The notes beneath the pieces were generated by a model. The model saw only the letters and a program-made list of their open reading frames with translations, searched no databases and had not been told where the DNA came from. The position numbers and the translations under genes are program-made. From Plasmodiophora brassicae (Eukaryota): a DNA stretch of 64,000 bases. The first letter of the stretch is position 1, and each line of letters opens with the position of its first letter. Shown piece by piece: positions 1 to 60,544 of the stretch. Where the stretch lies: the NCBI GenBank assembly GCA_036867785.1, contig CP145425.1, positions 62,001 to 126,000 on the forward strand, in the 5' to 3' direction.

Positions 1-310
1 CAAGCTGCGTGGGATCATGTCGAACGGGATGGTCATGTGCGCGTCCAACGCGGACAGGACCGTGGTCGAGCTGATCTCCCCGCCCGAGGGCGCCGTGCCG
101 GGCGACATCGTCACCATCGCCGGCGCGAACGTGCCGCCTGCTCCGCCGGCGCAGGTCAATCCGAAGAAGAAGGGCAACGCGTGGGAGACGAGCGCCCCGC
201 TGTTCAAGACCAACGCCGAGCGCGTTGCCACGTTCGCCGGTGCGCCGCTTCAGGTGATCGGCAAAGGCTGTTGCACGTCGCCGTCCTTGCCTGCTGCTAC
301 GATCAGCTAG
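1..310 (+). CDS. 3' end of a tRNA-binding (EMAP II/Arc1p/MetRS C-terminal-like) OB-fold protein; partial at window edge
   Basis: KLRGIMSNGMVMCAS...VELISPPEGAVPGD...NPKKK matches the tRNA_bind domain; the frame is open from the window start. Confidence 0.85.
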   Translation, partial: KLRGIMSNGMVMCASNADRTVVELISPPEGAVPGDIVTIAGANVPPAPPAQVNPKKKGNAWETSAPLFKTNAERVATFAGAPLQVIGKGCCTSPSLPAATIS

Positions 311-392: not shown

Positions 393-1606
<1,214 letters not shown>

Positions 1607-25496: not shown

Positions 25497-28400
25497 ATGG
25501 GCGAGCGCCCGGAGGACGATGGCGACGGCGGCGGCATCCCCGACCTCGGCGGGTACGTCGACGAGGTCGACCTGGATCCGCGCCTGCGCGACCTCGATGT
25601 CGACGCGATCGCCGACGAAGACGCGCTGATCCCGTATCTCCCGGATCTCGACGCCGAATTCTCGGCGGCCTTCTCCTTTCGATCCGGTGAGCGTCGTTGT
25701 CGTCCGCCCTACTGTGTCGTTGCCGATTTGCCAACGCTGTTACGCAGAATCCCGTCGTCTTGCACGACCGAAATCCCTGGATCCGATTTCGCTGAAGAAC
25801 GCGGCGCTCGCCAGGCATCGGTACGCGGCCCAGACGGATGCGGAGGACCGCGCCCAGCTTGTCGATGCGATCCGGCTTGGGTTGGCGGCGTTCTCGCCCT
25901 GGATCAACGTCCAGCTCAAGGATGGGTCGGGGAACCATCGATCTGTTCGCCCTGAGCAGGTCCACAAGGAACTCACCCGCATTGCCGAACAGTGCCATGT
26001 GGGTCGCTGTCGCCCTGCGTTGCGATTCATTGGTGTAACGGTGCCGTTAGGCATTGCTTGCACGGGAGGCAACGCTGCTGAAGTTCGTGTACCGCAATGG
26101 TACCAGTGCGATCTGTCGGCATCGGGAGTTCGCTCGACGAGCGTTCTTCGTTGTCTGGCGTCTCAAGAGCTCGGCATGTGTTCTGTCGTATAGCATGGCG
26201 TGCCACCTGTATCGGTCCCATGCGCTGAAGGTTAGCAGCTGTCTGGCGTAATGTGACTTGTCGACAGCTGACCATGGAGGCAGCGTGCCTGGCGGTCGTG
26301 GTGTGCGGCAAGATCCTTCACCGAAGATCGACGCCTTCTCGACGAATATGCGTTCGCTATGCACTCCCGACGTATACGAAGGGATGCGAAACTGTTACTT
26401 CAACGCTGGCGATTGACTTTACGACTTCACAAGTTGCATTCGTCGACCAGGTAATCGTGACGCTACAATGACTGCCTGATGTCGCTGAATCGCGATTTCA
26501 GGCGCACCCGAGTCCTGTCCCGTTGCCTCCGACAATGGGCACGGGCCCTGTCATTTCGACAATCCCGCAAGCTGATGTCCCGGGCAACCGCCGATTTCGA
26601 CGAAAGCAAGCGGGCTCTTGACGAGGCACGCGCTGTTATCGCTATGGAACGCCAACGTCAAATGCGGGCCCGTGTTCGGTCGGCGTTCAACACCTGGATG
26701 TCTCGGGCTCGTCGGTCGAAATGTCTGCAGGCGTTCCGGGAGCGGCGTGATCGTCGGTACAAATCGTTGGCCCTTTGGAAGTCAGTCCTTCGGTTTCCCG
26801 CGCGTGCTCTTGAACGTGCTCATGAACACTGTGTGCAGATGGGCGTTCGTTACGTCCGCGTTATCAGCCGGTGTTAAGCAGAAGCGAATTTTGCATTGCG
26901 CCGACTGTGGGTCAGTCATGAGGCAGTTCTGGTATGAGGACGACACGAATACTGGCGCCGCTGTCTCTTCGCATCAAGAACCTTCCGAGGACCTGCTGAA
27001 GCGTTTGCAGGACACTGAAGCTCGGGAAGCGGAAGCCAGGGAGAACGTTCGACGATTAGAGCGCACTGTTGCTATGCTGAGGGATCAGCGCGACAGCCAG
27101 GCGCCCGCGAGGCGCCCGTCATTGACGTCTTGTGAAACGCAGACGGACTTCGGCGAGCAACCCCAGGCGAGCGCTTCCGACTCGGAAGAAGTCGCCGAGC
27201 TCCGTCTGTCCCTAGAGCGCGCCGTTAACGTTTGTAACCGCCTCAAGAAGATCGTTATACAGCTGTCGTCTCCGACGATCCATCAGAGGTCGCAATCAGC
27301 GGCGCAATGCTGGGACCCGTTACCGCCGACGCATCCTTCTCGACATTCCGAACCCATGATCTGTCATCCTGACGGGCAACCACAGGCCGAGAGAGCCGTG
27401 AACCGGTTTCGCCGCCTTGCTTCTCTCATCGTTCGCGTGTTTCCCTCAATTGGATTCGATGATTCGCTTTTGGATTCGGAGGAATCGCAGGAAGCTTTCT
27501 GCCACACCGTCGATGACCTGTTCAAGTCGTTTGGTGTCCGCAACGCCATGGTGACCTCGAATGAACCGCTCCTGTCCAGTGTCCCCGTTCGGGCGTTGTC
27601 CATCTCGGGCCTTCCCGCATTATCCGACGATGCCAAATTCTCCCGAAACGAGAACAGTGGCTCGCTCCCACCGTCTGGTCCGTCGTTCGCTCGGATGGCG
27701 TCGTCGGATCATTCTGTCGCATCGAGCGGATCTTCTTCCAGCTCGCCTGGTCACTCCGACTCGCGTACTGCGACCGCGCCGGTCTGTCGCTCACTGTCTC
27801 GGTCCTCTCTTGGCGCTTCGTCTACGGAATTTGCTCAGACGTCCCCTGGAAAGGAAGCTGGGACTGCCGCTTCACATCCCGCCAGTGATGAAGCTCATCC
27901 ATCGGAAGACAAATCTGTTGCAGCGTATCCGTCTGCCGTTGAAGTTGAACCTACAGACCTGGTCGTCGTTAACCCCTCGGAACAAGCGAACAAGGTTATC
28001 GATCCGGGCCCTGCTTTGTCGGATGACGCGCCGGCCCCATTGCTGGCTCCGCCTACATCGAGTAGCCAACCGGTCTTGTCCTTATCTGGCGGCAACGATT
28101 TGGGTCAGCACACTTCGCTACCGAGTGAATCCGTTGGCGACATCGTCCCAGGACATTCAAGCACATCCGAACCTGTCTCGTTGCAGAATCTCTTAGAGGA
28201 ACCGTCGCTGTCGTCACGACGTGTTTCCGCAAACGTTGACATACCCTCTGTCTGGGGCACCGATGTGGTTCTAGCTCCATCAACCGAAACGTGGGACATG
28301 CCTGCGGCTACCGAGCCAATTGGATTATTTCAGAGCCCCAACGATTACCAACAGTGTGCTCCTGTGGTCGTTGAACCTTCACAAGACAACGGCGCAAATG

Positions 28401-30694
28401 TCCTTGCCGCGCCTGCGGAGCCTGCTCTGCCAAGAACCGTTTCGGCATCGTCGCCTGAATCAATTACATCACCTGCGATAACTCCTCATAATCACATAGA
28501 TGGGGATAGACATGCTGCGATCGACAACAACGAGAAGATGTCGGGTGGCAAGCCTACCGGTCCAGGTCCCTTTCTGTCGAAGGGTTCGCCTGACCCTGCT
28601 TCCTATAACGAGCCCATGAAGTCATCACAGGACCCTGCAAGTGTTGACCAGCGTGATCCGGTCCCGAATGAACTCAGTCAGGCCAGCGCGTCAAGTTGTC
28701 CAAGTGTGCCTGTTATACCTGCGTTACCAGGGTCTCTGCCGGATTGTGTCACTGAGTCTCGCTTCGCACGCCCTAAAGATGATGATCGAACTGGCCGACC
28801 TACTTCGAACGACGTCGAGGCAGCATTGGGCGCCACTGTCACTGCACGAGAACCAGATTTCAGTCAGGTCACCGCGTCAGGTCGTCCAATTTTACCTGTT
28901 ATACCTGCGTTGCCAAGACCTCTGCCAGAACGTGTCACTGAGCCTCGCTTCGTACGCCCTAAAGATGACGATCGAACTGGCCAACCGACTTCGAAGGACG
29001 CCGAGGCAGCATTGGGTGCCACTGACACTGCACGAGAACCAGAACTCAGTCAGGGCAGCGCGTCATGTCGTCCAAGTTTGCCTGTTATAGCTGCGTTGTC
29101 AAAGCCTCTGCCGGAGCGTGCCACTGAATCTAGTTTCGCGCGCCCTAAAGATGACGATCGAGCTGGCCAACCGACTTCGAGCGACGCCGACGCAGCATTG
29201 GGCGCCACTGTCACTGTACGAGAAGCAGACGTGATTGATTCGTCACGAACCCAGTGTACTGAGCCACGGCAGTCGACCTCGGACGATCTGCCTGACCAAA
29301 CATCGACAATCGGTCGCCATCCTTCTCCAGGCGTTTTGTCTGTATATGATTCAGAAGCGCCAACAAACGTGCCGCAGGGTTCATCGCCAGAACGGCTTAG
29401 GGGAGCGACGTCCAATCGAGATGCTGTTGACCCATCCGGGCCTCCATTGGCGACCACGACATACCCTTCAGCGTCTTCGCGTGTATCGTCCTGTGAATTC
29501 GACGCCGCGTCGTCGATGGCGCTGGTATATTCCAGCTTTCAGGCAACTGCGGGTGGAACAGGCCGCGTTAGCCGTTCTGCGCTCAAGGCTGCTCTTGGGC
29601 AGATCATCGGCAACCCATTATCCTCTGCCGACCTCTCGTCCTGGTGTCGCGTCCTTCTGCCTCTGGCCGACGACAATGCGAACCGGGTCAATTGGCAACC
29701 CCTGTTCAGTGTTCCCACACAGGCTTTTGTGGCCCGCCGTGCCCTTCTCGACATCGTATCTGATCTGCGTCTGTCGGCTCTCCGTCTCCGGTGCCTTCGC
29801 CGTGCAATGACGGTCTGGAGGCGCTCCTTTCTGCGCCGTTGCCGTCTCGCGGATGCTGCCAACTCGGTTGAGCGTCGCACCGAATCAAGGCTGCTGTCGA
29901 CAGCGTTCTCCACATGGCGCTCGCGATGCCGACGAATCACCAAGGCGCAGCAGACCCTTCTCCGCGTGTTCTCCTCCGTCTCTCGTCGTCGTATGTCCAG
30001 TGCGTGGCATCGATGGCGTCGTTCATGCGAACCGACGATCGAACCTGCAACCGTTCCCGCAGAACGCGCCGTCCCTGCCCGGACGGTCAACCGTCTGTAC
30101 CTCCATCTGTACTGGCTCGGCTGGCGCCTAGCGTTCTGTCTCCGGCGCTCCAGGGCCGACGACGATCGTCCGGTCGTTGTGGCGTTCTCCGCTCATCGGC
30201 AACAGCGTGCGGCATACTTCTTCAGATGGCGATGCGCTGCTCTCGTCCGCTGGCTTGGCGAGGCCCAAATGCTGGAGCGCATCCAGTCATCGACGTATGC
30301 CAGACGGTTGGCGTTGACGTCGATGAAGAGTGCCGTGCGTCTGCACGACGTCATCGATCTGCAGTCCAGGACGAGTGCTCGTCGTCGGTTCTTCGCTGCG
30401 TGGTACCACCATTGGCACATCGTCCGCCTGCGACGATTGCCTCTCGTCCGACTCGTCGACCACGCTCGCATTCATCGCCTGCGCCGCGCATGGAGCATAT
30501 GGGCACGACGTCCTATCCCGGCGGCCGCCGCTGAGGCGCCCGCCGACGACGACGGCGCCGCTGCGGCTCTGGACCAGGTCCTGGTCGAGGTTCGAGCTCT
30601 GAGGCGACGAGTCCTGCTGAGGCGGGCGATGACGGCGACCCGGGAGGTCGACCCTGCTGGCGTGTTCGCACGCGACCTGCTGTCGCCATGTTGA
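25497..30694 (+). CDS. Large protein with Sfi1-like Trp repeats, coiled coils, a disordered core and three 62-aa tandem repeats; 5' exons uncertain
   Basis: Long ORF 26618-30694; repeated motifs RRAMTVWRR, STAFSTWRSR, SSAWHRWRR, RRAWSIWAR; upstream exons with the same RxxxxW pattern. Confidence 0.6.
28669..29226 (+). repeat. Three in-frame 186 bp tandem repeats (62 aa, ...RFARPKDDDRTG...AALGATVTARE)
   Basis: Anchor actga at 28751, 28937 and 29123 gives a 186 bp period. Confidence 0.95.
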
Positions 30695-51154: not shown

Positions 51155-51647
51155 CGCCGGCGAACCGCCCCCAACGGTCCTGCCCGACCGCCATCATGCG
51201 CTTCCCTCCAGGGTCGCATATGCCAGGGTTCAGGGCGCCCGAGGTCGCCGGCCTGCAGGTACCGTGCGAACGGTGCAAGCGGGTCGGCACCGTTCGGCTC
51301 GCCTCCGAGCCGAAGGCTCTGGACGGGTACCGGTACCTGTGCGCACACGCACCGGACCCGAGCTCGCCCAGCCGCACTTCCGGCCCGCCGACCTGCCGGA
51401 GGGCCTCGAGCGCTCGCCTGCAGCCTGCTGCAAAGCGAAGCGCTCCAGCGAGCACTGCATGTCATGGGTCGGTGAACCCCGAAGCCTTGCTCAGGAAGCC
51501 ATGACATGCAGTACTCGCTGGAGCGCTTCGCTTTGCAGCAGGCCGCAAGCGAGCGCCGGAAGTGCGGCTGAGCGAGCTGCGGGTCCGGCGCATGCACGCA
51601 CAGGTACCGGTATCCGTCCATAGCCTTCGGCTCGGAGGCGAGCCGAA
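51155..51647. mobile_element. Degenerate transposase zinc-ribbon fragment (Merlin/IS1595-like) folded into a hairpin, arms 51293-51467 and 51499-51647
   Basis: VPCERCKRVGTVRLASEPKALDGYRYLC...CCKAKRS with a frameshift; the second half is repeated in reverse orientation. Confidence 0.5.
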
Positions 51648-52429
51648 TTGCGTTGGATCATCGGCTGCTCGATTGTCACGACACGTCGGCCTAGCTCATC
51701 AATCTTGGCCTCAAGCGCCGCAACACGAGCTGTCGAGTCGGCCTCGGGTACGTCTCCATCGGCCGGGTTTCGCTGGCAGAGGGTCGGCCGCGTCGAGCCG
51801 GGCGTACAGGTCCTGGATCATCTGACGCAGTTCAGCGTTCTCGGCTTCGAGTGCCGCGATACGTGTTCGTAGTCCGTCATCGCTGCTGTCTCCTCGTTTG
51901 TCGTCAGGTGGGACATCCTCCGCCTCGTCCACTGGGCTTTTGTTCGTTGCCTCGGCCGCGCGCATGCATCGCGGCCGACTTCTGCTTCCTCGCCTTCGAC
52001 GGCTCCAGCCACTTCGCCGCCAGTTGGGAGCCCAGTCGGATCAGCTCCGGGCCACGCGCTCAGCTCCGACCTTCTTGCCACACGCGTTCGTTGCACATGT
52101 ACCGGGGGGGGCGTCTTCGTACCCGGCCTCGGTCCGGATGTCGAGGCGGCCGACGGCGCCGTATGACGCCTGCACGCAAATTGGGTGCAACCCGACCTTG
52201 TTCGCGACCTGGAACGCGAACATGTGCGTGTCCATCGCGTAGTGCGACTTGTGACTGCTGCAGAGTGTTCCGCCAGTGGAGGCTCCCGGGCACGTTCGGC
52301 GGCTCGCGGTGGTAGTGGCATCGATGGATCTTCGACGTCAGGCTGGGCCCCCTCCTTGATCCGTGACTCGGGTGCTCCCTCGGCTTCAATCGGCTTGCCG
52401 GCGTCAAGGTCCTCGATAATGGCGTGGTC

Positions 52430-52816
52430 GTCTTCGACTTCCCGTACGGGCGACGACGTCAGGATGACCACCGAAGTGTCAGACTTGTCGTCGCCTTCCT
52501 GCGCACGGTCGTTCTGCCACATTGTCAGGTGACGAACCACGTGATCCAGCGGGGCATACTGCCGGAAGGGACGAGGTTCGTCGTATTCGCCCGGGCACAT
52601 TTCAAGTGCCCAACACGCGTCGCGTACCTGATTTCAGGCCTTGAACCTCGCCAGGAAGTCGGGCGGCACCGACCGCAGCTTCTCGGCGCCCGCGGCTGCA
52701 CCGGGCCTCGCGGCGTCCAAAGACGTCGGTTGGCGTCGGCCGCCGGCGGCCTTGACCGGGGGCTTCGGCATCGCCCCGCCGCGCCCGACCGCCCTTGTCC
52801 CAACCTACTTGACGTA
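52430..52816 (-). pseudogene. Inverted partial duplicate of the 5' end of the dsRBD gene (copy of ~53883-54320)
   Basis: 52640-52816 is a near-identical reverse complement of 53883-54059; RQYAPLDHVVRHLTMWQND..VILTSSP matches RRYAPLDDRVRHLMLWENE..MILTSSP. Confidence 0.9.
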
Positions 52817-53872
52817 AGTGTATTTACACACGTTAATGCGGCGAATGCAACGAACTGGCCGTTGCGGCTGCAGCTGGATCAGTGATCCGGCGCAGGGGAC
52901 GAAGGTGAGGGCGGTGCTTGATCACGGACGCGCTCCGTGGCGGCCGCTATTTCAGGGCGGATGCCATCTCGGCGACGACGGCGCTGTGGGCTTGGGCACG
53001 TCGATGATGCAGCGCGCCGGCGATGCCGCCTCGTCATTGCCGGGCACCGTCGGTGCAGCCAGCTTTGTGACGGTATCGCCAGGCGCGTACGTCTATCCCG
53101 CCGCGGCGACGCATCTGGCGACGGCGTCCAACACGATCGTCCTCGCCAGCTGGTAGGTCGCACGGCTGGTCGCAGCTTGCCTCGCTTCCTGACGGCGTCG
53201 TTGGTGCAGGGTACGGGACGGGTGCGACGGGCGATCCGGGCGCGTGCTTTGCGTGGCCCCGCTTGGACCGGCCGGGGGCGCTGTCACGATCGGCGTCGGC
53301 GGCATCGCGTTCCTGCTCAATGTCCTGCTCGTCACGGCCGCAGGCGCGGTCGGCGCCGTTCGCCTCGGCGGGCGCTCCGCTCTGCTGCTGGTCCTGGGGG
53401 TCCACCGGATGCTCCTCGTCGTGTTGCTGCTGGTCGACACCGGGCTGGGCGGCGGCTGACGCGCTGTCGGTCTCCGCGTGCTCGATGTCGTTCATGTCGG
53501 GGCCAGCTGCGCCTCCTTCGATACACTCGACCTGCTCCTGCATGGCTCGCTCGGCCGCCAGCACGGCCGTTCGCGCCGCCTGATTGTCCGGGTCGCCCAT
53601 CAGCGGGGCCGTTGTCCAACGCGGCCCGGCCGCCGAACGACGCGGGGGGGGGGGGGGGACTTGTAAAGTGTATTAACACGCTGAAGCGCCGAGCGCAACG
53701 AACCGGTCGTTGTGTCAGGAGCTGGATCGGCGATCCAGCTCCTGACGCAGCGACCTGGTCGTTGCGTCCGCCGCCTCAGCGTGTTTAATACACTTTACAA
53801 GTCCCCCCCTGCAACGACCAGCTCGTTGCACTCGTCGCGTCAGCGTGTTAAATACACTTAACAAGTCCCCCC
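52816..53872. mobile_element. ~1.06 kb non-autonomous TIR-type element with repeated terminal units and an internal acidic ORF (53034-53600, minus strand)
   Basis: Unit GGGGGGACTTGT(A/T)AAGTGTATT..ACACGCTGA forward at 53652, inverted ending 53809 and 53872, truncated forward at 52816; central hairpin caggagctggatc-ggc-gatccagctcctg. Confidence 0.65.
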
Positions 53873-53927
53873 CTGTAATCCCTACGTCAAGTAGGTCGGG
53901 ACAAGGGCGGTCGGGCGCGGCGGGGCG

Positions 53928-56387
53928 ATGCCGAAGCCCCCGGTCAAGGCCGCCGGCGGCCGACGCCAACCGACGCCTTCGGACGCCGCGAGGCCCGGTG
54001 CAGCCGCGGGCGCCGAGAAGCTGCGGTCGGTGCCGCCCGACTTCCTGGCGGGGTTCAAGGCAGCGCAGCGCGAGGGGAATCGCCCCACGTGCCCGCGCTT
54101 CCTGACATCAGGTACGTTGATGCTGGACCAGCGTCGGTCATTGGAAGGGCGCTAGGGCGAGCACCAGCCGCATCTCAACCCGTGCCGACGATACGCACCC
54201 TTGGACGACAGGGTTCGTCACCTGATGCTATGGGAGAACGAGCGTGCTCGGCGGGCGCTTGAACGCGACGACGAGTCGGGACATATCAGTGATGATCCTG
54301 ACGTCGTCGCCGGAACACGGAGACGGATACGACCAGAAGAAGGCTGAAGGTACCGACGCCAATGCGATCATGGAACACGAACGGCCGGCCGGAGACGCCG
54401 CCCAAGAAGGATTCACGACCCCGATCGCCGACGACCCGCCGTCGGGAGCGACAGCGCGATCACACGAGTGGTTCAGTCGCCCACGGACTGCGCGGTCTCG
54501 CCCGGTGTCTCTGGTCGAGTCCGCGTCCCGTTCAACGGATGGTACAACCGTCGATGCTGACGCCGACCGGCGACGCCGTGCGCAGCGCGCTGGTCGCGCA
54601 GGTACGCGCGAAGCAAATCACATCGGTCAGGCTGCGGGACGGATCACTGTCGCGGCGCGTCACCTGACATCCCCTAGCAGGCGTTCGCTCTGCTGCATGC
54701 CTACACGCAGCTGCATGACAAGACGTCGGCCGTGTTCCAGTACACGATGGTCGACGGCCTGCACTGCGTGTCGATCATCGTGAAGGGCGCGGTCTGCGCG
54801 TCGGCCACAGCAGCGTCGAAGAAGCAGGCGAAGCTGATCGCCACCGAGAACTTCCTGCGGCAGGCCTGCCCCGAAGCGCTGGCGCTTCTGCAGCCGGCCT
54901 TGTCCCTGGCGTCGTCCAGTCCCGAGCCGCAGACCGGGTCTCCCGCCCCGGACGCGTTGCCAGCGGCCCCGCCACAGGTGCATCGATTCCGATGGCACCC
55001 TGTGGAGCCGCTGCGCCAGTCCACCCAGGTCGTGCACGATGCCGCACGTGGGGACCCGCTGGCCCCCATCGCACACGCCGTCGACATGGGCCACATCACA
55101 TCGCTATCCGACGCGCTGGACGACGTTGCCATGCGCCTTCACGGCTGCCTGCCGACGTTCGACGTGTCCCGGAGCGACGACGGCGACGAGTTCATCGTCC
55201 AGGTCCACGTTCGTGGCGTCCCGTTCGGAGCGGGTGCCAGCGCCAGCCGCGATCGCGCCCGGTCCCTGGCGATCGAAACCGCCCTGCGACAACTGGCGCC
55301 CACGATCGCCGCCCAGCTCGGCAAGCGCAACCGGGAACGTCGCCAGCAGGCGGCGTTGCCTGATGGGCGTCCCGTCGGGCGCTTTGCCCCAATGAACGGC
55401 GACGGGCGACCATCGGATCGTTGCGTTGACGGTGGGGCCGCTGATCGTTTCGCGATCGGTCACGTCGTGCGCCCCGCGCCCTGGTCCAATTTCTCGTCGA
55501 CGAACAAGTACGATGCACCGATCCGGTCGACGCTGGACGCGATCGGTTACGATCAGGGGCGCCGGTACGCCCAGGAGGACGCCCCCGCTGACCTGCCGAC
55601 GCGGGACCCGAAGCGGATCTGTCAACGCGTCCACGAGCCGGACGCGAACGCCTGCTCGCCGTCGCACGACCTCGGGCCATGGAATCCCCGACGTGGTGCG
55701 GTTAACGCCGATGGCAACGACGACGAGGATGATGATGTGCCTGACTGGGTGCGACGGGCTCCCCGGTATCCACCAGACAGCAGCAATGGTGCGATCGCAC
55801 AGGGCCCGCCGGTCGTCGTTCCTGTCGGTTCCGATGCCGACGACGCCAACGTGGACAAATCCGTGCCGATGACGCTCGACAGGTACGCGGCGCTCGACGT
55901 GGACTCGCTGGACCCCATCCTGCTCCAGTCCGACCTGCCGTTCGACCTTGGACCCGACGTACGGCACAAGACGCCCGTGTCGGCGCTTGGCGAGTTGCAC
56001 GACAAATTGTACGTCGCTCGCCGACTCGTTCATTCCCTGTAGACGCTGACCGTGTTTGGAACAGCATGCCCGCTGCATCGCTGTCGTACCGGGCGTCGAA
56101 CTCGGTGAGCTCGGCGCTGTCACGTCAGTTCACGTGCGATCTGGACCTCGGCCACCTGCACGTATCGGTAGGGTTCGCACAGTGCCGGGCGTCTCGTGAT
56201 GGCAGCGTTCGCTGACGATCCGCAGGCGTCCGTCAGCACGAACTCGAAGCACGCCAAGCACCATGCCGCCCAGAAGATGATCCAGCGCCTGTTGCCCAGC
56301 TGCACCAAGTACATCGACGTCATGCGCGTGCTGTCGAAACGATCGACCGTGGCGACGCTGGAAGGGTGGAGCGTGCCCGATAGATGA
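53928..56387 (+). CDS. Protein with three dsRNA-binding domains, DGCR8/Pasha-like; 5' exon structure uncertain
   Basis: LLHAYTQ...ASATAASKKQAKLIATENFL; PTFDV...FIVQVHVRGVPFGAGASASRDRARSLAIETAL; KTPVSALGEL...NSKHAKHHAAQKMIQRLLP. Confidence 0.8.
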
Positions 56388-56525
56388 TCGCGGTCCACAT
56401 TGCGCCATTGGCCGCGTAGCAGGGACGATACGCCCCCAGGTGCATCCTTGTGTAGACTTACAACATTATTTATGCGCTGTCAATACATCCAGTAAACGTG
56501 GGCTGGTGACGGTAACAATCGCGGT

Positions 56526-59500
56526 TCATTCGTCCTCCTTCTCGTCGAGGGCCGTGTGAATCGACACCATCTGGGCGTCGTTCAGCTGGCTGGAATCCGT
56601 TCTCAGGACCGAGTACGGCAGCGTGTCCTCCAGCTGGCTCAGCTCGAGCGAACCCGCAGTCGTCACGAACTGTGGAGAGCGGACAGTCAGACCGAGAACC
56701 AACACAGCACCTACACATGCGTTCAACGTACGTAGCGAATGAACAGACGAATAGACGGCAGGTGGTGCGACGGGAAGGCCGCCTCCCGTTGCTTCATGTG
56801 GAAAACGGAGTAGCTGGCGAACCGCAGGAACGCGCTGAGCTGGTCTTTGATCCGCAACGAGACGTCTTCGACGGACAGCGACTCGTTCTCGATCGGCAGG
56901 TGCTGGAACGCACAGGTCAGGGCCCGGACGCACTCGGCAATGCAATGCCCATTGTTCGAGTGCGCCGACAGCGACAGGTCGAACACGGCCGACGACCACG
57001 ACTCGCAGATGAAGTGCAGGCCGAACAGGCACGGCATCAACGACCACAGCGAATCGTCCTCGGCGTTCAGCTTCAGCTGCCGCAGCGCGTTCTGAAGGTT
57101 CAGGTCGTTCTCGTTGCCGTCGGCCTTGAACGCACACCCCATCTCATGGGCAAGGTACTGCATGGTTTGCTCCCCAGGGGCAGGCTGCCCTGGGTCCACA
57201 TTCCACTCTTCGAACCGCCGAACCTGAGACAACCTTGCGTTAACCACCACCGGGAGCCGTTCGCTGACAACCGGACCGACATACCTGCTGGACAGCAGAC
57301 TTGAGAAACGGGATACGCGACTGGAGCGTTTGCTGCAGAGCGTGATAGAGGATTCGTCGCAGTTTCAGGATCGACCCGATCAGCACGGCGTGCCTGAAGA
57401 GGTCGTCCAGGCCGGTCAGCTTCTTGACCGCTTCCAGCCAGGCGGTCGGCTGCGCCATGCGACGCGACACCTTCAGCAGCGTGGCGCTGTTGTTCGACAG
57501 GCAGCGTTTGATCTCGAGCGCGGATTCCTGGACCTGGCTCAGCAGGCGACTTTCCAGAGCGCGCACGCCATGTGCGCCCGCAAACTGGCAGAACGCCTGG
57601 AGTTCGTTGATCTCCAGGTAGTCATGGGCCAGGAGACTGGCCGAATCGGTGGTCGTCGTAGACGCCTGATGCCCCTGAGAAGGCATCAGTTGACGCGATT
57701 CCAGATACTGTATACCGCAGACCTTGTCGTTCAGGCATCTGGTGTTGCTCAGGAACGCCATCGACGTATCCGAGTAGACCAGCTGGCCCTGCGACACCCA
57801 CTTCACGAACCCGGATGAGAAGAAACGCAAGAACAGGCCCCCGCATGTCTTCATGTCCATGTCCGACGATGCAAGTTTCGAGACAGGGTTGACACGGCCG
57901 GGCGCTTGTGATGGACCCATGGTGACGTCGCTGAATTCCTCGAAGAGCACTATCGTCACGAGAGCGGTTTCAGAGACGCGCCGTCCACATCGCACTGGAG
58001 CACTGACCCTCTTTCAGCAGGCTCTCCATACCGATGTCAATGTGAGCCTGGACCTCCTGCGATGGCAAAGTCAGGACCCGGATCCATACACGTAGCGTTT
58101 ACTCGAGTACCTGGACAGCTCGTAGAATCAGTTTGCACTTGATGAGGAACTTGGTGGGTCGTTCGAATTTGCCGTTGCTGGTGGCGGCTCCTCGAAGGAC
58201 TTCCTTAAGGGCCGCCTTCAGGGCAGCAACAAGGTATTGACCTGACCAGCATATAAGACGCAACGAACGACTGCAAGCCGGACGAGCAGGCGCACCTGGC
58301 CACAGCTGCTGATCGTACACCTGAATGGTTTGGTTGTCTCGAAACGCCGAGCAGATGTTGCCACAGATCTGCCGGGTATACTCGATACGTCGAGCAATCT
58401 GGTAGAAAGGCGACCCTTCCGGTAGGCCCGTCGTCCGCCCAGCGGGACACCCGCCCTAACAGGTCCAGTAATTCAGACGTCAACATGAGGGCCTCCTTCG
58501 TCGGTCGGCAGACCATTGCATAAAGCTGCAGCATGTCAGCATACAGAACGCGGAAGGCGTTGCCGACGTGGGCGCATATCGCCTGCAGGTTCTTTTCGGC
58601 CAACGCCACCGACTCTGGACACGACGTGGTCAGTCGAATGCGATTGCACGATTGGCGGCAGCGACACCTGTGGCGATCGTAGGCTGTTCTTCCGGGCACA
58701 GACGGTGCAGGTTCTGTTTGGCGGAGAAGTACAGGCTGACAAACGAGAAGCAGTATCGTGGAATATGCCCGCGGCAGTGCAGGCTTCGCACGAACGACTC
58801 GGTGACCTCGTTCGTGAAGTAGAACAGGTCGGCGAGCGATGCGAACTGGCGCAGCTGGGCCGGCAGACCGTCGATGCAACGCGACCGGAAGCAGACCGTG
58901 TTCAGGTGCACGACCAGGTTCTTGGCGGCCGCGGTTCGGCTGCCTCCTTGCGCCGAGATCAGCATGGCCGATAACCTGTAGCAGTTCATGCGCAGCCCTT
59001 GCAACGATTCCGAATCGGTGGCGACGTCGGCCACGCTGAGCGACTGCAACAGGAGCCGCCCGTGAGCCGACGCGCGGATGTCTTTGGCCAGTTCCTCGAC
59101 CAGCTGGACCGTGCCGGCCATTGACGTGCGGAACGACTCGACGTAGTACGCCTTGATGACGTCGTCGTGCGTGGCAACCAGGCCGCTGAGCTGGTCGACC
59201 AGGAAGAACAGCTCGCTGATGTAGTCGTCTTCGAACGACTCCTCGGTCGTCCACTTCTTCCAGTCGCGCGCCAGCGGCTGCCGGGCGCACAGGTGGTTGA
59301 AGTACCACATGATCTCCTGGCGGCACAGCGACAGGATCGCGAGGACGATCGGGAGCTTTGGGGCGACCAGGCCGGGCACTTCATGCAGGAGCGAGCAGAG
59401 GACGGAGGCCTGCGCACGCAGGAAACGACGTGCGTCGGCGTGTTCGGAAACGGATTCGTTGACCGCGTGCAGACGAGCCGCCTTCGTCAGCTCCTTCAGC

Positions 59501-60544
59501 TTCGGCAGCTTGAGCTTCTTGGCGAATGGCGAGACGAGCAACGCGTCGTACTGGTCGTGGATGCAGAACGTCACGTTGCGGAATATGGAGACGACGAGGC
59601 CGTGCTGGAGAGCGAGGCGAAGGATGTCGCGCGTGTCGTCGTTCTGGAGCTCGGTGGGGCAGACGAGGAAACCGTACAGGACCCATAGGCAGAAACGACC
59701 CAGCAGTTGCAACTCGAAGTAGACGTCGGAGCTGGCGGGCCGCGTCAGCTGATCCGGGTTGTCGAATATGCTGAGGTAGCCCTTCTCCCTGATGACCGCC
59801 AGCTGCCCGTTCTCCGAGAACCGGTGCCCCATCGCCAGCAGAATATGCCCGACGCGATGCGACAGCTGCTCACAGTCCTCCTGCAGCTGGCGAATCGGGT
59901 TCGCGTAGTCGATCAGGAACTTGGACACTCTGGCAAGGACGACGTCAGAACGGACCGGTCCCATGCCATGCAGCGAACAGGGCGCTCCGTTACTTTTGAT
60001 AGCTGGGCTCGAACGTCGACTGCGTGCAATTGTACGCATGGGCGAATATGATGCAGAAGTCCTTGCGGTCCTGCAGGCTGTCGACCAGCAGCAGCAGCTG
60101 CGTCAGGCTGGTCAGAAGGTCCATGAACCAGATCGTCAGGTCCCGCACGATATCGAACTGCGCGCGACAACGTTCAATGCCTCGAAAGGGACGCGCGTCG
60201 AACGACAGACTCACCTGCAAATCCAGGATGTCGGTCGCGACATCGTTCAGGAGTTTCGTCGTTTCCTCCTTGAACTGGCAGACATCGACGAGCGTGTAGT
60301 AATACGGCGCCAGCGCGTCGTGGATGTCGCCCGCATGCTGCTTGAAATAGTTGAACGACGGGCCCTTCTCGATGGCGTTGGCCTGGAATTCCGGGAACTT
60401 CTTCACGAACTTCTGGCAGATCTTGTCCATGTTGCTGTCGAGCACAGCCGGGCGCTTGAACGACATCAGCAGGTGGTGGCAGCGCGCCATCAGCCCCGCG
60501 CACGCATCGTTCAGCAGCAGCAGCCGCTCGGCGACCTTCGCCAT
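56526..60544 (-). CDS. NCKAP1: Nck-associated protein 1 (Nap1/Hem), WAVE/SCAR complex subunit, multi-exon
   Basis: KVAERLLLLND..GLMAR, KFVKKFPEF, LAPYYYTLVDV, APKLP...EIMWYFNH, LHRLCPEE, AHSNNGHCIA, LEDTLPYSVLR. Confidence 0.93.

What the first reader, a model, noticed from the sequence alone, without database searches (positions are those of the whole stretch)
53928..56387. DGCR8/Pasha-like multi-dsRBD protein in an apparently non-animal protist
Seen: three dsRBD-pattern segments and no RNase III, helicase or deaminase domain. The last segment (YAALDV..DPILL...KTPVSALGEL...NSKHAKHHAAQKMIQRLLPSCTKYIDVMRVL) and the first (LLHAYTQ...ASKKQAK...L..ACP) resemble my recollection of the two DGCR8/Pasha dsRBDs, including the helix after the second domain. 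Established: Pasha/DGCR8 is the Microprocessor cofactor, known mainly from animals and their holozoan relatives. Inference: this may be a Pasha-like hairpin-RNA processing cofactor in a distant lineage. No WW domain was seen.
Basis: partly seen in the sequence, partly recalled or inferred. Interest (0 to 1): 0.85.

Follow-up and report, generated by a model that had tools for sequence, protein, structure and literature searches.

The report
DGCR8-like dsRNA-binding protein of clubroot pathogen
This is a real, spliced gene of the clubroot parasite Plasmodiophora brassicae for a protein with three double-stranded-RNA-binding domains, the first of which looks more like that of the animal microRNA factor DGCR8/Pasha than like any other solved one, but it lacks the other hallmarks of Pasha and a published test found no binding to the parasite's Drosha-like enzyme.

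Summary
The three dsRBD segments are real (Pfam dsrm E 1.1e-12, 3 stretches). The gene is expressed and spliced: RNA-like contigs of three studies lack three GT..AG introns that a DNA-like run keeps. The coding start is 54539, not 53928. The spliced product (559 aa) is letter for letter an NCBI 'DRBM domain-containing protein' of Plasmodiophora brassicae.

HMMER over 1.84 billion representatives found relatives only in P. brassicae and Spongospora subterranea. A three-sequence family profile ranks the four DGCR8 sequences of the PDB first (E 1.1e-7 to 2.9e-6). The next dsRBD is PACT at 0.0053. The Spongospora protein alone repeats this. The match is the first dsRBD to DGCR8 dsRBD1. The match of the last dsRBD's helix to DGCR8 dsRBD2 is collinear but not significant alone.

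There is no WW domain and no long C-terminal tail. A 2026 paper (PMC13547706) reports a Drosha-like RNase III, no Dicer, and two three-dsRBD proteins that did not bind it in yeast two-hybrid. This gene is very probably one of those two.

Verdict: a phytomyxean dsRNA-binding protein with DGCR8-type dsRBDs, probably a small-RNA-pathway cofactor. Pasha orthology is unproven.

The parts
54539..54625 (+). Coding exon 1 (29 codons, start ATG 54539). It encodes the helix before the first dsRBD.
   Evidence: Annotated proteins P0001 and P0009 start here. The spliced translation equals P0009. It is the first ATG after 54370. RNA-like contigs run 54478-54624 into the joint.
54626..54680 (+). Intron 1, 55 nt, GT..AG. 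A minor alternative acceptor at 54677 adds one CAG codon.
   Evidence: The joint 54624>54680 is in X1, X2 and X5. The joint 54624>54677 is in X1 only. Neither is in the DNA-like run X15. Splice-site context.
54681..56008 (+). Coding exon 2. It holds most of dsRBD1, linker 1, dsRBD2, the 206-residue linker 2 and helix alpha1 of dsRBD3.
   Evidence: Pfam dsrm on this frame: E 4e-7.
56009..56064 (+). Intron 2, 56 nt, GT..AG, inside dsRBD3.
   Evidence: The joint 56008>56065 is in X1, X2 and X5 and not in X15.
56065..56167 (+). Coding exon 3 (strands beta1 to beta3 of dsRBD3).
56168..56225 (+). Intron 3, 58 nt, GT..AG, inside dsRBD3.
   Evidence: The joint 56166>56225 (cut +1) is in X1, X2 and X5 and not in X15.
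56226..56387 (+). Coding exon 4: alpha2 of dsRBD3, the following helix, a 19-residue tail and stop TGA 56385-56387.
54566..54911 (+). Extended dsRBD unit 1 (residues 10-106, across intron 1): a0-a1-b1-b2-b3-a2-a3. This is the DGCR8-dsRBD1-like unit.
   Evidence: AF2 pLDDT about 84, with elements H9-23 H30-42 E47-53 E56-63 E66-73 H76-91 H93-106. Profile hits to DGCR8 dsRBD1 at 24-30 bits per domain. VIA alignment to 2yt4: Z 9.7, 83 residues, rmsd 2.8. Coordinates.
55062..55349 (+). Extended dsRBD unit 2 (residues 157-252), a diverged copy of unit 1. It is followed by the basic patch KRNRERR (residue 244 onwards).
   Evidence: The unit-1 HMM scores it 32.3 bits. AF2 pLDDT about 82. Its best PDB hits are DGCR8 dsRBD1: 1x47 at E 0.17 and 2yt4 at E 0.69. 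Basic patch.
55968..56327 (+). dsRBD unit 3 (residues 459-540, across introns 2 and 3). It is a different dsRBD type, with a helix after alpha2.
   Evidence: Best Pfam dsrm stretch is 478-526. The unit-1 HMM gives only 2.5 bits. PDB profile hits: PACT 2dix E 0.0045, DGCR8 2yt4 E 0.016. Secondary structure is a-bbb-a-a but pLDDT is below 50.
53850..54538 (+). Transcribed, unspliced stretch upstream of the CDS. It is either a long leader or a separate transcript.
   Evidence: Contigs of X1 (53850-54494), X2 (53850-54480) and X5 (53870-54500) are colinear. All three break at 54478-54500, where the DNA-like run goes on. Depth in X5 is 5.5 upstream against 68 downstream. ORF lengths.
53883..54061 (+). 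Right arm of a head-to-head inverted duplication (left arm 52638-52816, 98% complementary). Weaker similarity continues to about 54335.

Best explanation
The locus is an expressed four-exon gene of Plasmodiophora brassicae. It encodes a 559-residue protein made of three extended dsRNA-binding domains joined by long Pro/Asp/Ala-rich, probably disordered linkers.

The family is confined, as far as HMMER sees, to the plasmodiophorids P. brassicae and Spongospora. It is built from one to four copies of an N-terminal unit type plus, in this protein and its Spongospora relative, a distinct C-terminal dsRBD. Each N-terminal unit is a dsRBD flanked by an extra helix on either side, with a proline right after alpha2. 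Among solved structures this unit type is specifically closest to dsRBD1 of DGCR8/Pasha.

Inferred mechanism. Unit 1 binds A-form RNA duplexes or hairpin stems. It carries SKKQAK at the start of alpha2 and a His in the b1-b2 loop; that these are the RNA-contacting motifs is recalled knowledge. Unit 3 (SKHAKH) probably binds as well, and unit 2 (SRDRAR) less so. The flexible linkers would let the protein clamp or measure long stems. In an organism reported to have no Dicer and no RdRP, but a Drosha-like RNase III and two Argonautes, the most likely role is a dsRNA/hairpin-binding cofactor of the small-RNA pathway, in substrate choice, cut-site fidelity or hand-over to Argonaute.

What is shown: the gene structure, its expression, the domain content, the restricted distribution and the preferential similarity to DGCR8. 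What is inferred: RNA binding and any role in small-RNA biogenesis. Direct binding to the Drosha-like enzyme is not supported by the one published test.
For: Spliced transcripts in contigs of 3 studies. The product is identical to NCBI protein P0009. Pfam dsrm E 1.1e-12 with 3 stretches.

The AF2 model has two confident a0-a1-bbb-a2-a3 units, with VIA Z about 10 to dsRBDs.

Only 4 proteins reach E<=1e-3 among 1.84 billion representatives, all from P. brassicae or Spongospora.

Between two P. brassicae strains there are 13 substitutions and a 2-residue indel: 0 in unit 1, 2 in unit 2, 0 in unit 3 plus tail, and the rest in the linkers. This fits selection on the domains.

Preference for DGCR8:
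- Profile A4: 4 of 4 DGCR8 sequences are ranks 1-4 of 21 hits, at 29.5-34.1 bits, against 18.7 (PACT), 18.0 (Thermotoga RNase III) and 16.7 (ADAR2).
- The same holds with profile A2.
- Spongospora P0002 alone: DGCR8 takes ranks 1-4 of 6, E 8.5e-4 to 0.016.
- Unit 2 alone: 2 of 3 hits are DGCR8 dsRBD1.
- Foldseek: DGCR8 chains take ranks 1-4, and 5 of the 9 matches at E<=0.001.
- ESM Atlas structure rows: Pasha and DGCR8 clusters have the highest TM by query (0.64 and 0.63 over 93 and 91 residues, against 0.53-0.59) for residues 1-110, and 0.66 for the C-terminal part. These are leads only.

Context from PMC13547706 (abstract, section 12 and passages of sections 8, 9 and 28 read): no Dicer or RdRP, a Drosha-like PbDRL needed for 21-nt sRNAs, and two Argonautes.
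Against: - The same paper reports that PbDRL did not interact in yeast two-hybrid with either of the organism's two three-dsRBD proteins (Pb09092, Pb07475), and that PbDRL alone cuts dsRNA into 21-mers in vitro. That one of these is our gene is my inference, because I found exactly two such proteins (P0009 and P0007). Figure S12 and the tables are supplements I could not open.
- No RNA-binding or small-RNA data exist for this protein.
- Single-sequence searches with the window's own protein are weak. The whole protein hits only DGCR8, at E 2.1. dsRBD1 without its leading helix has no PDB hit at E<=10.
- The paralogue P0007 alone hits no dsRBD in the PDB.
- VIA Z-scores do not separate DGCR8 (9.7-10.1) from mitoribosomal mL44 (10.6) or bacterial RNase III (10.3).
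- The PDB is a narrow sample of dsRBD diversity, so 'closest solved' is not 'closest of all'.
- dsRBD3 is modelled with low confidence.
Confidence: 0.5

Rival explanations
1. It is a true, much-remodelled Pasha/DGCR8 homologue that works with the Drosha-like PbDRL as a Microprocessor-like complex. This could arise by ancient common descent with loss elsewhere, or by transfer. The yeast two-hybrid negative would be a false negative, for example because binding needs RNA, a dimer or the native context.
For: Unit 1 matches DGCR8 dsRBD1 over its full length, 11-15 bits above any other solved dsRBD. There is a collinear second match of the last dsRBD's alpha2 plus the following helix to DGCR8 dsRBD2 plus its C-terminal helix. 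The proline right after alpha2 is shared by all 11 family units and, in the HMMER alignments, by both DGCR8 dsRBDs. The helix before dsRBD1 aligns with DGCR8 residues 495-510 in VIA (model 7..99 to chain 495..583). A Drosha-like enzyme is reported in the same organism (PMC13547706). Several ichthyosporean Pashas also lack a detectable WW domain yet were accepted as Pasha (PMC6206976, passages read).
Against: No WW/Rhed domain. No tail comparable to the Drosha-binding C-terminal tail: only 19 residues follow the last helix, and no alignment runs beyond about DGCR8 residue 702. There are three to five dsRBDs with long linkers rather than a compact two-dsRBD core. The second match is not significant alone (i-E 14 to 540). 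The core of dsRBD3 prefers PACT. Yeast two-hybrid was negative and PbDRL is active alone (PMC13547706). I ran no phylogeny and could not fetch PbDRL.
Confidence: 0.18
2. It is a lineage-specific general dsRNA-binding protein unrelated to small-RNA biogenesis. Possible roles are Staufen-like mRNA transport or stability, masking or sensing of viral or convergent-transcript dsRNA, or ribosome or RNA-helicase assistance. On this reading its likeness to DGCR8 dsRBD1 reflects retention of an old dsRBD subtype or convergence.
For: It has only dsRBDs and no pathway-specific domain. Long disordered linkers are typical of multi-dsRBD scaffold proteins. Structure alone does not separate it from other dsRBDs. 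Yeast two-hybrid with PbDRL was negative (PMC13547706). The second paralogue, P0007, has lost any PDB-detectable similarity, which shows fast drift in the family.
Against: The DGCR8 preference is reproducible in two species and two profiles. Staufen hits are weak (E 0.2-0.5) and no Staufen_C domain was found. The organism has a working small-RNA pathway whose dsRNA-binding helpers are unknown (PMC13547706).
Confidence: 0.3
3. It is not a functional gene: a pseudogene or an annotation artefact.
For: The stretch upstream of the CDS is a broken partial duplicate of the neighbour's 5' end, with a stopped frame.
Against: The four coding exons give an open 559-codon frame with GT..AG introns that are removed in contigs of three studies. 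The domains are unchanged between strains while the linkers vary. A Spongospora relative keeps the same first and last domains.
Confidence: 0.02

Closest known systems
DGCR8 / Pasha (Microprocessor cofactor of animals and ichthyosporeans)
   Same: It is a dsRBD-only RNA-binding region. The first dsRBD, with its flanking helices, matches DGCR8 dsRBD1 best among all solved chains (24-29% identity). A different last dsRBD is followed by a helix that aligns with the helix after DGCR8 dsRBD2. It is found in an organism with a reported Drosha-like RNase III (PMC13547706).
   Different: No WW/Rhed domain and no C-terminal Drosha-binding tail. There are three dsRBDs (five in Spongospora), 50 and 206 residues apart, instead of two about 40 residues apart (the DGCR8 spacing is read from the chain ranges). 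No interaction with the Drosha-like enzyme was seen in yeast two-hybrid (PMC13547706). The organism has no Dicer, so the enzyme makes mature 21-mers itself.
TRBP / PACT / Loquacious / R2D2 (three-dsRBD partners of Dicer)
   Same: Three dsRBDs joined by flexible linkers. The core of the last dsRBD scores best with PACT dsRBD (2dix, E 0.0045-0.0053). A role as helper of an RNase III or in Argonaute loading is plausible.
   Different: No Dicer is reported in P. brassicae (PMC13547706). The first two units do not prefer these proteins: TRBP, Loqs and R2D2 hits have E 0.65 or worse. The extra helices and the post-alpha2 proline are not part of those matches.
HYL1 / DRB proteins of plants
   Same: dsRBD-only cofactors of hairpin processing in non-animals.
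   Different: Weak matches only: HYL1 at E 0.39-0.45, 12 bits. Domain number and flanking helices differ.
The second P. brassicae three-dsRBD protein (P0007, 331 aa) and Spongospora subterranea CRZ09742.1 (P0002, 855 aa)
   Same: True family members. They share the unit-1 type, with its leading helix and post-alpha2 proline. P0002 also shares the C-terminal dsRBD, the conserved motif before it and the last residues.
   Different: P0007 has three type-1 units and no C-terminal-type dsRBD. P0002 has four type-1 units.

Membership tests
dsRBD proteins (Pfam PF00035 dsrm) | Significant match to the dsrm profile | tested here: met
   E 1.1e-12, 48.8 bits against a cut-off of 23, 3 stretches. E 4e-7 on the window's exon-2 frame.
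dsRBD proteins (Pfam PF00035 dsrm) | alpha-beta-beta-beta-alpha fold | tested here: met
   Units 1 and 2: AF2 pLDDT 82-84 with that order of elements, and VIA Z 8-10.6 to many solved dsRBDs. Unit 3 shows only the secondary-structure pattern, at pLDDT below 50.
DGCR8 / Pasha | dsRBDs closer to DGCR8/Pasha dsRBDs than to other dsRBD families | tested here: met
   This holds among solved structures only. DGCR8 takes ranks 1-4 with both family profiles and with the Spongospora protein alone, driven by unit 1 against DGCR8 dsRBD1. A phylogeny over all dsRBD families was not run, because no DGCR8/Pasha sequences could be fetched as objects.
DGCR8 / Pasha | Second dsRBD with its C-terminal helix, forming a compact two-dsRBD core | tested here: inconclusive
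   There is a collinear alignment of alpha2 plus helix, but the domain i-E-values are 14 to 540. The core of unit 3 prefers PACT. Models of unit 3 are low-confidence.
DGCR8 / Pasha | WW-containing Rhed (haem-binding dimerisation) domain upstream of the dsRBDs | tested here: not met
   No WW or other family at E<=10 in Pfam. Only 9 residues precede unit 1. Some ichthyosporean Pashas also lack a detectable WW (PMC6206976, passages).
DGCR8 / Pasha | C-terminal tail that binds Drosha | tested here: inconclusive
   The protein ends 19 residues after the last helix. No alignment to DGCR8 beyond about residue 702 appears. A short conserved C-terminal motif is shared with Spongospora, and its role is unknown.
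DGCR8 / Pasha | Physical and functional partnership with a Drosha-type RNase III | not testable with these tools
   No genome is held and PbDRL could not be fetched. The literature reports yeast two-hybrid negative for the two three-dsRBD proteins (PMC13547706, sections 9, 12, 28). Which of them is this gene sits in supplements I could not open.
TRBP / PACT / Loqs type Dicer partners | Three dsRBDs, the last serving Dicer binding, with Dicer present | tested here: inconclusive
   Three dsRBDs: yes. The last one hits PACT dsRBD best. Dicer is reported absent (PMC13547706). Orthology was not tested.
Staufen | Staufen-type dsRBDs and the Staufen_C domain | tested here: not met
   No Staufen_C in Pfam. 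Staufen chains reach only E 0.2-0.5.

The most novel reading that the evidence does not exclude
Plasmodiophorids (Rhizaria) carry both halves of a Microprocessor-like module: the published Drosha-like RNase III, and this Pasha-type dsRBD protein (DGCR8-dsRBD1-like first unit, DGCR8-dsRBD2-like end). If so, the Drosha/Pasha pairing is either far older than Holozoa or was transferred between supergroups. In this Dicer-less organism it would have been remodelled to make mature 21-nt RNAs in one step. The yeast two-hybrid negative would reflect an RNA-dependent or otherwise conditional contact.
Probability: 0.18. Interest if true: 0.85.

Novelty: new variant of a known kind. Interest (0 to 1): 0.6.

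Why it matters
The Microprocessor (Drosha plus Pasha/DGCR8) is regarded as an invention of animals and their closest unicellular relatives (PMC6206976). A 2026 paper reports a Drosha-like enzyme that makes all small RNAs of a Dicer-less rhizarian crop parasite. It leaves open how that enzyme picks and measures its substrates, after finding no two-hybrid contact with the organism's two three-dsRBD proteins (PMC13547706).

This report shows that one of those proteins is not a generic dsRBD protein. Its first domain is specifically DGCR8-dsRBD1-like, in two plasmodiophorid genera. That gives a concrete, testable candidate for the missing helper, and a data point on whether Pasha-type dsRBDs predate Holozoa.

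My literature searches found no paper holding both 'DGCR8' and 'Plasmodiophora', and none with the locus tag PBRA_002046. The only paper holding Drosha, Pasha and Rhizaria that treats this organism is the 2026 paper.

Tried and rejected
Rejected: the frames do not join, and the RNA-like contigs are colinear there.
- My guessed donor at 54602 and my guessed last intron 56105-56171. Replaced by the observed joints.
- Whole-genome search for an RNase III partner: no genome is held. I did not scan the window itself for RNase III beyond 14 long ORFs; none of those had it.
- The look-up of sequencing runs listed no holder on record as RNA.
- Word-index protein searches found only the protein itself: 1 of 7999, 1 of 8000 and 1 of 46 candidates scored. 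A max_evalue of 100 was out of range.
- Complex prediction of unit 1 plus unit 2 against the C-terminal part, a test for a DGCR8-core-like packing: no verdict, scores 0.27 and 0.24 under the mark of 0.34, controls not run.
- AF2 of the C-terminal 133 residues alone: pLDDT 42.5. This is too poor for a fold search, so none was made.
- ESM Atlas feature searches: best named hits scored 0.86-0.87 and were generic dsrm clusters, so they do not discriminate.
- Rfam over 51500-57000: no family at gathering score.
- Pfam on the neighbour's frames: nothing significant.
- A dsRBD phylogeny and a reciprocal search with DGCR8 were not possible, because no DGCR8/Pasha sequence could be obtained as a usable object.
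Full report
WHAT IS THERE

The window is GC-rich eukaryotic DNA, 53-67% GC in 2-kb steps. Its genes include Nckap1, a DPP3-type M49 peptidase and an aspartokinase with ACT domains.

The frame 54678-56042 carries Pfam dsrm (E 4e-7). A word-index search with exon 2 found one protein, P0001 (557 aa, 97% identical). NCBI calls it an unnamed product of Plasmodiophora brassicae and UniRef calls it DRBM domain-containing. Its cluster also holds P0009 (559 aa, NCBI 'DRBM domain-containing protein [Plasmodiophora brassicae]').

Joining the window's ranges 54539-54625, 54681-56008, 56065-56167 and 56226-56387 and translating gives P0009 exactly.

GENE MODEL AND EXPRESSION

No run is on record as RNA. 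I laid the contigs of three RNA-like runs from three studies (X1, X2, X5) and one DNA-like run (X15) on 53850-56650.

All three RNA-like runs carry contigs that skip 54626-54680 (55 nt), 56009-56064 (56 nt) and 56168-56225 (58 nt), each with GT..AG ends. X15 has one contig running straight through 54021-56650 with no joint. The intron-less forms therefore exist as transcripts. X1 also has a minor joint to 54677, a NAGNAG alternative that adds one codon.

Two of the three introns lie inside the third dsRBD. This is why that domain looked broken in the raw frames.

Upstream, contigs of the three runs are colinear with the genome from 53850/53870 to 54480-54500, and new contigs begin at 54478-54490. 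The DNA-like run goes on across this point.

It lies in the right arm of a head-to-head inverted duplication (52638-52816 against 53883-54061, 98%).

THE PROTEIN

Pfam finds dsrm three times (E 1.1e-12). Nothing else appears at E<=10 except DSRM_2 at 1.9. There is no WW, RNase III, helicase or deaminase domain.

AlphaFold2 with the four-sequence alignment gives two confident units (residues 10-106 and 157-252, pLDDT 82-84). Each has an extra helix before alpha1 and another after alpha2. The linkers and the third unit are low-confidence; the third unit still shows the a-bbb-a-a order. Folding the C-terminal 133 residues alone did not help (pLDDT 42.5).

The linkers (50 and 206 residues) are rich in Pro, Asp and Ala. 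A basic patch, KRNRERR, follows unit 2.

Between the window's protein and P0001 (another strain) there are 13 substitutions and one 2-residue indel:
- none in unit 1
- two in unit 2
- none in unit 3 or the tail
- one in linker 1
- ten plus the indel in linker 2

THE FAMILY

HMMER against 1.84 billion representatives found four proteins at E<=1e-3. By name they are:
- a Spongospora subterranea protein of 855 aa (P0002, 35% identity)
- a fragment of the query itself
- two fragments of a second P. brassicae protein, whose full form is P0007 (331 aa)

An HMM of the first unit finds 2 such units in P0009 (the second scores 32 bits), 4 in P0002 and 3 in P0007. It gives the C-terminal dsRBD of P0009 only 2.5 bits and does not detect that of P0002. 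The family is therefore built from a repeated 'type-1' unit plus, in P0009 and P0002, a distinct C-terminal dsRBD. That last domain is preceded by a conserved motif and followed by a conserved helix and end. All 11 units have a proline right after alpha2.

IS IT DGCR8-LIKE?

Results for:
- The clean profile of P0009, P0002 and P0007 against all PDB sequences returns 21 sequences at E<=10. Ranks 1-4 are the four distinct DGCR8 sequences (2yt4 1.1e-7; 6v5b 1.1e-6; 1x47 1.7e-6; 6lxd 2.9e-6; 29.5-34.1 bits). Next come PACT 2dix (0.0053, 18.7 bits), Thermotoga RNase III (0.0086) and ADAR2 (0.022).
- An earlier four-row alignment gave the same order.
- The match is unit 1 against DGCR8 dsRBD1 over the whole domain and a few residues beyond alpha2 (domain score 24-30 bits).
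- The Spongospora protein alone gives DGCR8 as ranks 1-4 of 6 (8.5e-4 to 0.016), then PACT.
- Unit 2 of the window's protein alone gives 3 hits: DGCR8 dsRBD1 twice (0.17, 0.69) and a phage portal protein that I take as chance.
- Foldseek on the full model puts DGCR8 chains at ranks 1-4 (1.8e-5 to 3.9e-5). The margin over MLE (5.8e-5) and TARBP2 (1e-4) is small. The best single-domain hit is DGCR8 1x47 (29% identity, rmsd 2.4 over 66 columns).
- In VIA-align, the DGCR8 rows have the longest single-domain alignments (78-83 residues, 24-26% identity, model 7..105). These include the leading helix.
- ESM Atlas structure rows put Pasha and DGCR8 clusters first by TM. These are leads only.

Results against or neutral:
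- The window protein's dsRBD1 without its leading helix finds nothing in the PDB at E<=10.
- Whole P0001 finds only DGCR8, at E 2.1.
- P0007 finds no dsRBD.
- VIA Z-scores are tied among mL44 (10.6), RNase III (10.3) and DGCR8 (9.7-10.1).
- The C-terminal profile ranks PACT first (0.0045) and DGCR8 second (0.016). The DGCR8 match is confined to alpha2 plus the following helix, with domain i-E-values of 14 and 37 in that search and 70 to 540 in the whole-family profile searches. It is collinear and suggestive but not significant alone.
- The PDB is a limited sample.
- I could not run a phylogeny or a reciprocal search.

CONTEXT FROM THE LITERATURE

PMC13547706 (Adv Sci 2026; I read the abstract, section 12 and passages of sections 8, 9 and 28) reports the following for P. 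brassicae:
- abundant 21-nt siRNAs and miRNAs
- two Argonautes
- no Dicer and no RdRP
- one Drosha-like protein, PbDRL, with two RNase III domains, a dsRBD and a predicted 'Bump' helix; it is needed for small-RNA production and cuts dsRNA to 21-mers in vitro

[quoted passage not shown] They saw no yeast two-hybrid interaction with PbDRL (Figure S12, a supplement I could not open).

I found exactly two such proteins (P0009 and P0007), so this gene is very probably one of them. That identification is an inference. In the passages I read, the paper does not compare these proteins with DGCR8.

PMC6206976 (passages read) states that Drosha and Pasha were known only from animals until they were found in Ichthyosporea. 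It also states that only three of the ichthyosporean Pashas showed a WW domain.

Searches for 'DGCR8' with 'Plasmodiophora' and for the locus tag PBRA_002046 found no paper.

HOW IT MOST LIKELY WORKS

Shown: an expressed protein of three dsRBDs, with domains conserved and linkers free to vary, restricted to plasmodiophorids, and with a DGCR8-dsRBD1-type first unit.

Inferred:
- Unit 1 binds RNA duplexes. It has SKKQAK at the start of alpha2 and His in the b1-b2 loop; that these are the contacting motifs is recalled knowledge.
- Unit 3 (SKHAKH) probably also binds.
- Unit 2 (SRDRAR) may serve more as a spacer or a protein contact.
- The long linkers allow binding along extended stems.

In a Dicer-less, RdRP-less cell with a Drosha-like enzyme, the most economical role is helper of small-RNA biogenesis or loading. 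I give this 0.5. A true Pasha homologue partnering PbDRL gets 0.18. A general dsRNA-binding role outside the pathway gets 0.3. A non-functional gene gets 0.02.

NOVELTY AND SCORE

The gene is annotated. As one of two three-dsRBD proteins it was very probably already tested once as a Drosha-partner candidate, with a negative result. What I did not find in print is the specific, reproducible likeness of its first domain to DGCR8 dsRBD1, and the two-type architecture of the family.

I rate it a new variant of a known kind, with interest 0.6. It would interest workers on microRNA-machinery evolution. But membership in the Pasha family fails on the WW domain, is open on the tail and the partner, and rests on best-hit evidence only.

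Noticed in passing
window 52638-52816 and 53883-54061 (weaker similarity to 52425-52570 / 54180-54335): Head-to-head inverted duplication. The arms are 98% complementary and 1066 nt apart, and each holds the same ATG and first about 45 codons. The left copy has a 40-nt deletion and a stop. The minus-strand neighbour (frame 51818-52633) shares only this 5' part, has no dsRBD and has no Pfam family.
   Followed up: partly
window 53650-53810 (and direct repeats 53747-53810 / 53811-53874): Near-perfect palindrome of about 160 nt between the two divergent copies. As RNA it folds to -175 kcal/mol, z -18 against shuffles. It is flanked by a 64-nt tandem repeat, and its 22-nt end motif occurs 3 times in the window, all here. 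If transcribed it would be a long hairpin. I did not test whether small RNAs come from it.
   Followed up: partly
window 54478-54500: Contigs of all three RNA-like runs break here, with overlaps of only 3-14 nt and different depths on the two sides (X5: 5.5 against 68). The DNA-like run continues. This is a weak hint of a transcript start for the dsRBD mRNA and of a separate upstream transcript.
   Followed up: no
window 56388-56723 and beyond: The gene converges on an Nckap1-like gene on the minus strand (Pfam Nckap1 on frames 56723-57364, 57240-58013 and 58630-60102). Single RNA-like contigs of 5.2-5.4 kb run from the dsRBD gene across the short gap into that gene. The two 3' ends therefore abut or overlap, a possible source of natural antisense dsRNA in an organism reported to lack RdRP.
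   Followed up: no
window 51293-51647: Two further inverted repeats: 68-nt arms 219 nt apart at 91% complementarity, and 58-nt arms 31 nt apart at 95%. They lie in a region whose translated frames repeat between about 49100 and 51650. This looks like a repeat or foldback element.
   Followed up: no
window 26576-30694 (+): An open frame of 1372 codons with no Pfam family at E<=0.001.
   Followed up: no
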